From Candidatus Bipolaricaulia bacterium (GTDB lineage Bacteria > Bipolaricaulota > Bipolaricaulia > JBHIAT01), in the NCBI GenBank assembly GCA_046758705.1, contig JBHIAT010000045.1, positions 1 through 22,279 of the forward strand: a DNA stretch of 22,279 bases, given 5' to 3'. The position numbers were made by a program, and so were the translations under genes. Below the pieces are notes generated by a model. The model saw nothing but the letters and a program-made list of their open reading frames with translations, ran no database searches and was not told where the DNA came from. The first letter of the stretch is position 1; every line of letters begins with the position of its first letter. Shown piece by piece: positions 21,647-22,279 of the stretch.

Positions 21647-21790
21647 CAAAAACAAAAGGGGAAACGGCCCAGCTGTTTTGGCTGGGCCACCCATCTTAGG
21701 CTTGTTCCCGAAGGAACAGAGGCCACCGATGGCTGCTCCTATTCCCGATCTGAGATCGGGACACCCGCTGTTAAGGTCGGTATTCGGAGA
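21647..21790 (-). ncRNA. Candidate structured RNA ending in an intrinsic terminator
   Basis: TCCCGATC/GATCGGGA hairpin, long stem capped by C(UUCG)G, then GGCCCAGC/GCTGGGCC hairpin + U-rich tail. Confidence 0.55.
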
Positions 21791-21800
21791 TCACTATTAT

Positions 21801-22143
21801 TCATTCTTTCAGCGGCTAAAACCGCGTACTTTTAGTACGCGGATACAGCCGCCCTTGACTTCCCCTCCTGCATGTGGTATAACCACCATAGGTCTTTGAC
21901 AACGTAGGGGGTTGTTGCCACAACCCTGCGCAACGTAAAACGTTGTGGGTATAGCCAGGTGTATTTTGCCAGCGTTTTGCGGTTCAGCGAGACAGAAGCT
22001 AACCGCCACCAAGCCTGGCCTAAAGAAACTAAAATGCTGTGTGTACCAGGCCGGGCGCGGCCTGCGTGGAGACGAGAACCTCTGCTTGTGTAAGTTCCGT
22101 CTGTGAAGCGAGAAGCCACGTACTTTAGTGTGTGGAGCGTCAC
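21801..22143 (+). mobile_element. Non-autonomous, ORF-less IS200/IS605-family element
   Basis: Left end: TTAT (21797-21800), AAAA, hairpin CCGCGTACT-tt-t-AGTACGCGG; right end: GAAG, hairpin CCACGTACT-tt-AGTGTGTGG, TCAC (22140-22143). Confidence 0.8.
21855..21883 (+). promoter_or_regulatory. Near-consensus sigma70 promoter inside the element
   Basis: TTGACT 21855-21860, 17 nt, extended -10 TGgTATAAC. Confidence 0.8.
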
Positions 22144-22163
22144 ATATACTCACTCAGTTGTAC
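21890..22163 (+). ncRNA. Candidate TnpB-type omegaRNA (reRNA) scaffold plus flanking guide
   Basis: Series of hairpins ending GCGTGGAGACG...CGTCTGTGAAGCGAGAAGCC-hairpin-TCAC, as at TnpB right ends. Confidence 0.65.
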
Positions 22164-22258
22164 CTGTCAAGACCCCGGATTCCTAAGTGGAAAAAGCTGG
22201 ATCCTTGATTTTTTGACTTATACCCTTCTATAGTTTCGCAGAATTTGAAGGAGGTGCA

Positions 22259-22279
22259 ATGAGGGTCGATCTTCCCCAT
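22259..22279 (+). CDS. Start of a gene truncated by the window edge (MRVDLPH...)
   Basis: AAGGAGGTG RBS; upstream TTGATT (22205-22210), 18 nt, TATAGT (22229-22234). Confidence 0.55.

What the first reader, a model, noticed from the sequence alone, without database searches (positions are those of the whole stretch)
21797..22163. Protein-free IS200/IS605 mini-element that appears to be a self-contained guide-RNA expression cassette
Seen: two related subterminal hairpins (CCGCGTACTTTTAGTACGCGG and CCACGTACTTTAGTGTGTGG), a near-perfect internal promoter, about 250 nt of hairpin-rich sequence and no tnpA/tnpB ORF. Established: TnpA (Y1) ends pair a 4-nt guide with a 4-nt cleavage site (IS608: AAAG/TTAC and GAAT/TCAA). 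The same rule fits here at both ends: AAAA predicts TTAT (present at 21797-21800) and GAAG predicts TCAC (22140-22143). TnpB omegaRNAs overlap the right end and use flanking DNA as guide. Inference: a 343-bp element that borrows TnpA and TnpB in trans, with TAM about (A)TTAT and guide ATATACTCACTCAGTTGTAC. ORF-less relatives have been reported, so novelty lies in this scaffold and host.
Basis: partly seen in the sequence, partly recalled or inferred. Interest (0 to 1): 0.8.

Follow-up and report, generated by a model that had tools for sequence, protein, structure and literature searches.

The report
Gene-less guide-RNA mini-transposon with extra module
This is a real 343-base, protein-less offshoot of a TnpB-type jumping gene that keeps both transposon ends, a promoter and a guide-RNA scaffold, which is a known kind of element, but it also carries a strongly conserved extra RNA motif of unknown role that differently ended elements of this kind share.

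Summary
Window 21801-22143 is a non-autonomous IS200/IS605 element. A 99% identical copy on another contig starts right after a flanking TTAT and ends at ...GTCAC. All 11 left ends read follow TTAT. A paralogous site on contig C10 is uninterrupted at exactly this point.

The left end and the last ~110 nt match a resident 393-aa TnpB-only IS. That 3' domain shares a covarying fold with the TnpB loci, with 10 of 34 pairs compensatory. ORF-less omegaRNA elements are already in print, and this scan has noted them in other genomes.

What looks new is a ~150-nt module between promoter and scaffold. Its ~60-nt core is 87-98% identical among five lineages whose ends are only 34-84% alike. The core recurs in four other MAGs, at least three of them of the same class, with compensatory helices. 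It was found in none of 26 tnpB loci and in no Rfam family.

Transcription, TnpB binding and mobility remain untested.

The parts
21797..21800 (+). TTAT: the target/cleavage tetranucleotide in the left flank. It is not part of the element. It is the predicted TAM for the TnpB-guide complex.
   Evidence: TTAT precedes all 10 fully assembled left ends aligned (C45, C120, C80, C106 and six subfamily-B copies). The C2 contig-end fragment also begins at it. It is kept in the uninterrupted paralogous site on C10. The TnpB-only IS on C185 follows TTTAT.
21801..21854 (+). Left end: AAAA 'guide' tetranucleotide (21818-21821) and imperfect palindrome (21822-21842).
   Evidence: Sequence. Homologous to the left end of the C185 TnpB-only IS, with 48 identities over 69 aligned positions of 75 nt.
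21855..21883 (+). Internal sigma-70-like promoter reading towards the right end: TTGACT, 17-nt spacer, TATAAC, with an extended -10 TG.
   Evidence: Sequence. A -35/-10 pair sits at the same place in the other G000 lineages, except the 5'-truncated C144 copy, and in G050 and G151 elements, although the surrounding sequence differs. Not listed by the consensus scan because the -10 ends in C. The transcription start near 21890 is inferred.
21891..22033 (+). 5' RNA module found in no tnpB locus searched. Core motif 21893-21951: UCUUUG, P1 (21899-21904 with 21941-21946), junction UAGGGGGUU, P2 (21914-21918 with 21930-21934), junction GUAAAA, GGGUA. It is followed by a long hairpin and closed by 21893-21898 pairing with 22020-22026.
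   Evidence: Covariance models R1 and R2 find 12 copies in the genome, none in a tnpB locus. The core is 87-98% identical among 5 lineages. P1 and P2 are kept by compensatory changes in G050, G151, G063 and G007. No Rfam match.
22034..22143 (+). omegaRNA-like 3' domain and right end. Closing helix AUGCU (22034-22038) with AGCGU (22136-22140); hairpin 22046-22064; GAAG 22112-22115; right-end palindrome 22116-22135; cleavage site TCAC 22140-22143.
   Evidence: BLAST: 81% identity to the right ends that follow the tnpB genes on C274 and C185 (sequences). The shared consensus fold of 4 mini-elements and 2 TnpB loci has 34 pairs, 10 with compensatory changes.
22144..22163 (+). Right flank (ATATACTCACTCAGTTGTAC), the predicted guide of the transcript. 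It would match the TTAT-adjacent donor joint after excision.
   Evidence: Position only. The first 16 nt occur once in the assembly, with no other TTAT-adjacent copy. Transcription across 22143 was not tested.

Best explanation
Window 21801-22143 is a non-autonomous, protein-less IS200/IS605 element of the PATE type. It inserted 3' of TTAT without a target duplication.

It has four parts:
- a left end;
- an internal sigma-70-like promoter;
- a ~150-nt structured 5' module;
- a ~110-nt omegaRNA-type scaffold that ends at the right-end cleavage site TCAC.

Inferred mechanism:
1. A Y1 TnpA encoded elsewhere in the genome excises and inserts the top strand. The tnpA-tnpB IS on C207 uses the same AAAA/TTAT and GAAG/TCAC tetranucleotides.
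2. The promoter makes an RNA that runs through the scaffold into the right flank.
3. A resident TnpB of the C185/C274 lineage binds the scaffold.
4. With the flank-derived guide, that TnpB cuts the TTAT-adjacent empty site left by excision, so the element is restored by recombination.

The 5' module is not part of the TnpB-linked scaffold. It is a portable leader shared by satellites with at least three kinds of TnpB-type right end. I think it most likely serves the stability, processing or loading of the guide RNA.

Shown here: mobility signatures, homology of the ends, the conserved fold, and conservation of the module. Inferred: transcription, TnpB binding, cleavage, and the role of the module.
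For: - Copies and boundaries: a 99% identical copy on C120 has different flanks, starts after TTAT and ends at GTCAC.
- Recent spread: six identical subfamily-B copies sit at six loci.
- Right ends: 21 right ends of this type have 21 different flanks.
- Insertion site: an uninterrupted paralogous site on C10 reads ...CACTATTAT|T....
- Left end: it matches the C185 TnpB-only IS.
- 3' domain: it matches the C274/C185 tnpB 3' ends at 81% and shares a fold with them, 34 pairs with 10 compensatory.
- Candidate nuclease: the C185 TnpB is 393 aa with PF12323, PF01385 and PF07282. It carries IDVG, FESL and HRDHN, which I recall as the RuvC D-E-D positions.
- Enzymes present in the genome: 22 TnpB zinc-ribbon matches over the Pfam cut-off and 6 Y1 TnpA matches.
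- Promoter: it is kept in position across lineages and genomes.
- Same pattern elsewhere: in G063 the mini-element's 3' domain matches that genome's own tnpB 3' end from the hairpin just after the NAARNIF codons.
- Precedent: published work describes PATE-like elements that encode omegaRNAs used in trans, and standalone omegaRNAs shown to work in trans (passages read).
Against: - There is no expression evidence of any kind.
- This copy's -10 box is TATAAC, lacking the conserved final T.
- The scaffold is only 81% identical to the nearest TnpB-linked one, and only over 60-80 nt by BLAST, so compatibility is assumed.
- G050, an 85% complete MAG, carries four module-bearing elements, yet no TnpB or TnpA was found in it.
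- The strongest conservation lies in the 5' module, not in the scaffold. This hints that the module may be the selected part.
- No orthologous empty site was found.
- The C144 copy joins a truncated module directly to a right-end palindrome with no scaffold.
Confidence: 0.68

Rival explanations
1. The element is mobile, but the conserved 5' module is the real cargo. On this view it is an independent small RNA (regulatory, ribozyme-like or protein-binding), and the TnpB-type 3' domain is kept only because it contains the right end that TnpA needs. No guide function is involved.
For: - The core motif is the best conserved part, at 87-98% against 59-84% for the 3' domain.
- It is combined with right ends of the GTCAC, GAGTCGTCAC and GTTGAC types, and in truncated form with a GCTCAC-type palindrome.
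- G050 has four such elements but no detectable TnpB.
- The C144 copy lacks the scaffold.
Against: - The ~60-70 nt between the module and the right-end palindrome are kept and covary with the TnpB-linked fold. A TnpA substrate would not need them.
- In each lineage read, the retained 3' part starts at about the same place as in the matching tnpB locus.
- The C80 derivative kept the 3' domain but lost the module.
Confidence: 0.2
2. The element is an inert decay product of a full-length tnpB IS. Its promoter and hairpins are leftovers with no present function.
For: No ORF and no expression data. This copy's -10 box is imperfect. Truncated derivatives exist on C80 and C144.
Against: - Six identical copies sit at different loci.
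- The module matches no tnpB locus, so it is not a leftover of the lost gene.
- Helices are kept by compensatory changes across five genomes.
Confidence: 0.06
3. The conserved module acts as single-stranded DNA during peel-and-paste transposition, for example as an accessory site on the excised top strand, and not as RNA.
For: The structure is specific to the + strand: its G-U (G-T) pairs would be A-C mismatches on the other strand. The + strand is the strand that carries the TTAT and TCAC cleavage sites.
Against: A promoter is kept immediately upstream in all lineages except the 5'-truncated C144 copy. Full-length tnpB IS of the same genome lack the module, so transposition does not need it.
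Confidence: 0.06

Closest known systems
PATE-like, protein-less IS200/IS605 elements of Geobacillus stearothermophilus (Meers et al. 2023, PMC10055086; passages read)
   Same: No ORF; left and right ends shared with tnpB-bearing IS of the same genome; carries an omegaRNA that must use TnpB, and be moved by TnpA, in trans.
   Different: - This element has a ~150-nt conserved 5' RNA module between the promoter and the scaffold, found in none of the tnpB loci searched.
- That module is shared by satellites with different right-end types.
- The host is an uncultured Bipolaricaulota-class MAG. The class is inferred from the record title of the same-class genome G050.
- I did not see the paper's extended-data figures or supplements, which may show comparable leaders.
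Standalone omegaRNAs of OMEGA systems (Altae-Tran et al. 2021, as summarised in PMC10691335; passage read)
   Same: Mobilised guide-RNA loci without an effector or transposase, in genomes that also hold effector loci. They are reported to work in trans, with biological role unknown.
   Different: From recall, those cases were mainly IscB-type, with the guide at the 5' end. Here the scaffold is TnpB-type, with the guide taken from the right flank. The 2021 paper itself was not read here.
IS608 / IS200-IS605 TnpA end recognition
   Same: Subterminal palindromes; a 4-nt guide 5' of each palindrome matched to a 4-nt cleavage site; insertion 3' of the target tetranucleotide; no target duplication.
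   Different: The tetranucleotides here are AAAA/TTAT and GAAG/TCAC. In subfamily B the left-end palindrome differs from the right-end one.
IStrons: a group I intron joined to a TnpB/omegaRNA IS (Zedaveinyte et al. 2023 preprint, 10.1101/2023.11.20.567912; abstract and figure-legend passages read)
   Same: A composite IS200/IS605 element in which a separate structured RNA module occupies the 5' part and the omegaRNA the 3' part. ORF-less PATE versions exist.
   Different: The module here is ~60-150 nt, lies behind an internal promoter and matches no intron or ribozyme family of Rfam 15. No splicing role is suggested.

Membership tests
Non-autonomous IS200/IS605 element (PATE type) | Subterminal imperfect palindromes at both ends and no inverted terminal repeats | tested here: met
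   Palindromes at 21822-21842 and 22116-22135, kept in the copies.
Non-autonomous IS200/IS605 element (PATE type) | Insertion 3' of a fixed tetranucleotide, without target-site duplication | tested here: met
   TTAT precedes 11 of 11 left ends read. Right flanks differ and show no repeat of the left flank. A paralogous uninterrupted site exists on C10.
Non-autonomous IS200/IS605 element (PATE type) | A 4-nt guide 5' of each palindrome matched to the cleavage site | tested here: met
   AAAA/TTAT and GAAG/TCAC here. Other lineages show CAAG/TGAC (right ends of C67, C19, G050 and G151; left ends of C5 and C54) and CAAA/TGAT (left end of C244). Read; the hairpin feet are my own parsing.
Non-autonomous IS200/IS605 element (PATE type) | No transposase or nuclease gene inside; several copies at different sites | tested here: met
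   No + strand ORF of 30 aa or more spans the element. There are 12 module-bearing copies plus fragments.
Non-autonomous IS200/IS605 element (PATE type) | Mobilised in trans by a Y1 TnpA | not testable with these tools
   Six Y1_Tnp matches in the genome. The C207 tnpA-tnpB IS has TTAT then ...GTAAAAC at its left end and GGAAG...TCAC at its right end. Cross-recognition is inferred.
TnpB omegaRNA (reRNA) | Scaffold homologous to the RNA encoded at the 3' end of a tnpB IS and abutting the right-end boundary | tested here: met
   81% identity to the C274 and C185 tnpB 3' ends. Common fold with 10 of 34 pairs compensatory. The scaffold ends at TCAC.
TnpB omegaRNA (reRNA) | Transcript that continues into flanking DNA to give the guide | not testable with these tools
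   No RNA data were available (details under Tried and rejected). Only a promoter-like site in the right orientation supports this.
TnpB omegaRNA (reRNA) | Binds a TnpB and directs TAM-dependent cleavage | not testable with these tools
   A candidate TnpB, P0001 (393 aa), has the three Pfam domains. No binding or cleavage test was possible.
Any described RNA family (Rfam 15) for the 5' module | Match to a curated covariance model | tested here: not met
   No match at gathering score over the whole window. Nothing lay in 21801-22143 at E up to 10. Nothing except a tRNA in six related loci at E up to 0.1.

The most novel reading that the evidence does not exclude
The ~60-nt core (UCUUUGACA, P1, UAUGGGGUU, P2, GUAAAA, P1', GGGUA) may be an undescribed class of structured RNA that works as a portable guide-RNA leader. 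It could be a processing signal or small ribozyme, an RNA-polymerase or protein handle, or a sensor.

On this reading it has been exchanged by recombination among omegaRNA satellites of several TnpB lineages in Bipolaricaulota. It would be a natural counterpart of the ribozyme- or tRNA-flanked guide cassettes that engineers build. It would also mean that satellites, not the nuclease genes, evolve their own guide-RNA biogenesis machinery.
Probability: 0.25. Interest if true: 0.7.

Novelty: new variant of a known kind. Interest (0 to 1): 0.45.

Why it matters
ORF-less omegaRNA elements are already described, so the element itself adds only a host phylum and a clean, well-bounded example. The example comes with a testable TAM (TTAT), a testable guide and a candidate TnpB.

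The part worth following is the 5' module. It is a strongly conserved, covarying RNA motif with no Rfam family. It sits behind the promoter of guide-RNA satellites with different right-end types, and it was found in none of the nuclease-bearing parent elements searched.

If the module controls the stability, processing or loading of guide RNAs, it would show how parasitic guide-only elements compete for a shared nuclease. It could also provide a compact natural leader for TnpB guide expression.

Tried and rejected
- **Known RNA families.** The window gave none at gathering score. Only two chance-level matches, both outside the element, appeared at E up to 10. ARAGORN found no tRNA or tmRNA.
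- **DNA search in relatives.** 21885-22143 had no match in 40 same-class genomes. No closer relatives are held.
- **Exact 21-mer of the core.** 0 hits in genome contigs and 0 in metagenome contigs.
- **Gapped pattern.** 5 loci in 2 MAGs in genome contigs; 0 in metagenome contigs; 0 in viral contigs.
- **Sequencing runs.** No RNA holder was listed. Four DNA runs from one hydrothermal-vent study were laid as contigs. No contig joins 21800 to 22144, so no empty site was seen. These are short unitigs, so this shows nothing either way.
- **Is the module a piece of tnpB or of its RNA?** Model R1 found only the 12 known copies in the genome. Model R2, run with filters off on 26 tnpB loci (67 kb), gave a best E of 1.4 at scattered places. 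I noticed a resemblance between CACAAC..GC.CAA in the core and the codons of the RuvC-III motif. I could not support it and I dropped it.
- **RNAalifold's two-hairpin model of the core.** It has 0 compensatory pairs, against 3 pairs and 7 cells for the P1/P2 model. The proposed GGGG:CCCU pseudoknot is only 73% paired and is not kept in G063, so I do not claim it.
- **Weak R2 matches.** Those in G117, G023 and G001 look like chance. One is simply a promoter, and G023 and G001 have no TnpB.
- **Literature searches.** Bipolaricaulota + TnpB returned 0 papers. TnpB + PATE + promoter + 'in trans' returned 4 papers holding all terms, of which 2 were listed, both already read. One search was rejected for a term-format error and not repeated.

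Full report
**What is there.**
- TTAT lies at 21797-21800.
- AAAA (21818-21821) is followed by the palindrome CCGCGTACTTTTAGTACGCGG (21822-21842).
- A promoter-like site reads TTGACT (21855-21860), 17 nt, TATAAC (21878-21883), with TG two bases upstream.
- About 250 nt of structured sequence follow.
- GAAG (22112-22115) is followed by CCACGTACTTTAGTGTGTGG (22116-22135).
- TCAC lies at 22140-22143.

The tool's promoter scan does not list the site, because its -10 box ends in C. Sister lineages have TATAAT. No + strand ORF of 30 aa or more spans the element.

**It is a repeated, precisely bounded element.** The window is contig C45 of a 3.7-Mb, 319-contig MAG.
- BLAST finds a 99% identical copy on C120. 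Its flanks differ from ours up to TTAT on the left and from the base after TCAC on the right.
- Six mutually identical copies (subfamily B: C183, C42, C279, C85, C65, C63) share the RNA body at 88% identity but have a different, shorter left end. All six follow TTAT and end in GAGCGTCAC.
- Further lineages lie on C106, C244, C159 and C144.
- C80 holds an internal-deletion copy: 41 nt of left end joined to 113 nt of right end.
- Several contig ends stop inside the element.
- TTAT precedes all 11 left ends of subfamilies A, B and C106 that I could read.
- A pattern scan finds 21 right ends of this type, with 21 different right flanks. Each 16-mer is unique in the assembly. Five of the 21 belong to tnpB IS or their contig-end fragments (C185, C274, C79, C259) or to the C80 deletion copy.
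- Metagenome contigs from four runs of one study show loose ends exactly at 21797 and at 22144/22146, with yet other flanks.

**An uninterrupted paralogous site.** The 145 nt to the left of the element have an 84% identical paralog on C10. There...GGAGATCACTATTAT runs straight on into sequence resembling our right flank; both carry CTGTCAAGA about 20 nt downstream. This fits insertion 3' of TTAT with no duplication. It is a paralog, not an orthologous empty site.

**Relation to resident IS.** The genome has 22 TnpB zinc-ribbon matches over the Pfam cut-off and 6 Y1 TnpA matches.
- The tnpB loci on C274 and C185 end in sequence 81% identical to the last 60-80 nt of our element (sequences).
- The C185 element is a TnpB-only IS. 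Its left end follows TTTAT and aligns with ours, with 48 identities over 69 aligned positions of 75 nt, including GGCTAAAAC, the palindrome and ATACAGC.GCC..TTG.CTT.
- Its TnpB (P0001, 393 aa) has the HTH_OrfB, OrfB_IS605 and zinc-ribbon domains.
- An alignment of the last ~112 nt of four mini-element lineages and these two tnpB loci gives a common fold of 34 pairs, 10 with compensatory changes. It includes a long-range helix, AUGCU with AGCGU here and AUUCUCC with GGGGAGU in C185 by my reading, that closes the domain.

So 22034-22143 is a TnpB-type scaffold that ends at the right-end boundary.

**The TnpA rule.**
- Right ends of C67 and C19, and of the G050 and G151 elements, have CAAG before the palindrome and end in TGAC.
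- Left ends of C5 and C54 have CAAG and follow TGAC.
- The C244 left end has CAAA and follows TGAT.

These are read, and the hairpin feet are my parsing. The tnpA-tnpB IS on C207 has TTAT and ...GTAAAAC at its left end and GGAAG...TCAC at its right end. That makes its TnpA the most obvious candidate helper, but this is inference.

**The unexpected part: a separate 5' module.**
- The ~150 nt between promoter and scaffold (21891-22033) match no tnpB locus. BLAST and a covariance model of the module (R1) find only the 12 ORF-less copies in the genome.
- The module is combined with different ends:
  - the C159 copy has the 3' domain of the C33/C14 tnpB type;
  - C144 joins a truncated module to a palindrome like that of the C207 IS;
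  - C244 has a left end of the C5/C54 type.
- Among five lineages the 63-nt core is 87-98% identical. The next hairpin is 66-92%, the 3' domain 59-84%, and the left end plus promoter 34-72%.

**The module occurs in other genomes.**
- R1 found four matches in G050, which was 1 of the 150 other same-class genomes searched. G050 is a Candidatus Bipolaricaulota MAG by its record title.
- A gapped pattern found one more in an uncultured-bacterium MAG, G151.
- A core model (R2) found further matches in G063 and G007.
- Of the 151 genomes in that call, 7 matched. These were our own genome, G050, G063 and G007, plus three that I regard as chance (G117, G023, G001).
- Only 1 of 74 genomes of G050's family has the motif, so the distribution is patchy.
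- All these matches lie in ORF-less units made of a palindrome, a -35/-10 pair, a leader, the core and a TnpB-type right end that finishes in GTTGAC or GTCAC. The G063 contig stops before its right end.
- In G063 the 3' part matches that genome's own tnpB 3' ends, starting at the hairpin right after the NAARNIF codons.

**Structure of the core.** Parsing all 13 sequences gives UCUUUGACA, 0-5 nt, P1 (6 bp), UAUGGGGUU, P2 (5-9 bp), loop, P2', GUAAAA, P1'.
- P1 reads ACAACG/CGUUGU, ACAACA/UGUUGU, UGAAGG/CCUUCA and UGCCGG/CCCGCA.
- P2 reads GUUGC/GCAAC, GCUGC/GCAGY, GCUAC/GUAGU and CCAGGA.../...UCCUGG.

On the 11-sequence alignment this model has 3 pairs and 7 cells with double changes, and 90% of cells are paired. 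The RNAalifold two-hairpin model has none. Only about five independent lineages are sampled, so this is supportive, not conclusive. R2 finds nothing in 26 tnpB loci with filters off, and Rfam 15 has no matching family.

**Interpretation.** The element is a PATE-type satellite of a TnpB IS. This kind is in print.
- Altae-Tran et al. 2023 summarise mobilised standalone omegaRNAs that work in trans and whose role is unknown (passage).
- This scan has also logged several such elements in other genomes, one with an extra 5' module in a phage.

What I have not seen described is a conserved leader motif shared by satellites with different right-end types and not found in the parent IS searched. Its role is open. 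I favour guide-RNA stabilisation, processing or loading. The main rival is that it is the selected cargo in its own right. Supplements and extended-data figures of the cited papers were not available to me and may show similar leaders.

**Weaknesses.**
- There are no expression data.
- This copy's -10 box is imperfect.
- No TnpB or TnpA was detected in G050, which is 85% complete.
- Scaffold compatibility with the C185/C274 TnpB is assumed from 81% identity and a shared fold.
- All genomes involved are fragmented MAGs, in which repeats are poorly assembled.

Noticed in passing
window 21652-21800, - strand; paralog at L023:1386-1523 (- strand; contig C10): A ~145-nt structured sequence with an 84% identical paralog. 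The consensus fold has 38 pairs, 4 compensatory between the two copies, and ends in an intrinsic terminator (window 21692-21662, - strand). On C10 a TTGACA-17-TAGAAT promoter lies just upstream. In the window, the mini-element sits between the equivalent promoter region and the RNA body. No Rfam match. This is a candidate unknown small RNA gene that the insertion has disrupted.
   Followed up: partly
window 22225-22279: The last 55 bases are shared with the ends of contigs C7, C287 and C188, and metagenome contigs show different upstream flanks from 22225-22228. So another repeated element starts here. Its first gene starts at 22260 behind a GGAGG ribosome-binding site, with a TTGATT-18-TATAGT promoter-like site at 22205-22234. 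Read-through from the mini-element's promoter would enter it.
   Followed up: no
G000 contigs C159 (L012:1422-1680), C144 (L013:1479-1640), C244 (L010:1-384): These are chimeric satellites: the same 5' module joined to ends of different IS lineages. C159 has a C33/C14-type 3' domain, C144 a C207-type palindrome, and C244 a C5/C54-type left end that follows TTGAT instead of TTAT. This suggests recombination among satellites.
   Followed up: partly
G000 contig C80, 9196-9351 (L011): A 156-bp derivative with 41 nt of left end, the two letters GC, and then 113 nt of the 3' domain. It has lost the promoter, the module and half of the left palindrome. The same joint is present in contigs of two metagenome runs.
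   Followed up: partly
G050 (L072-L075): Four module-bearing ORF-less elements in an 85% complete 1.1-Mb Bipolaricaulota MAG. No TnpB (PF07282, PF01385) and no Y1 TnpA (PF01797) was found in that MAG.
   Followed up: partly
G000 IS lineages; C192 locus L044: The tetranucleotide before each palindrome covaries with the cleavage site across IS lineages (CAAG/TGAC, CAAA/TGAT, GAAG/TCAC). C192 may add GAAC/TCAG, but its boundary was not verified.
   Followed up: partly
L088:1820-1891 (G007), - strand: A tRNA gene lies about 150 bp downstream of the G007 mini-element's right end.
   Followed up: no
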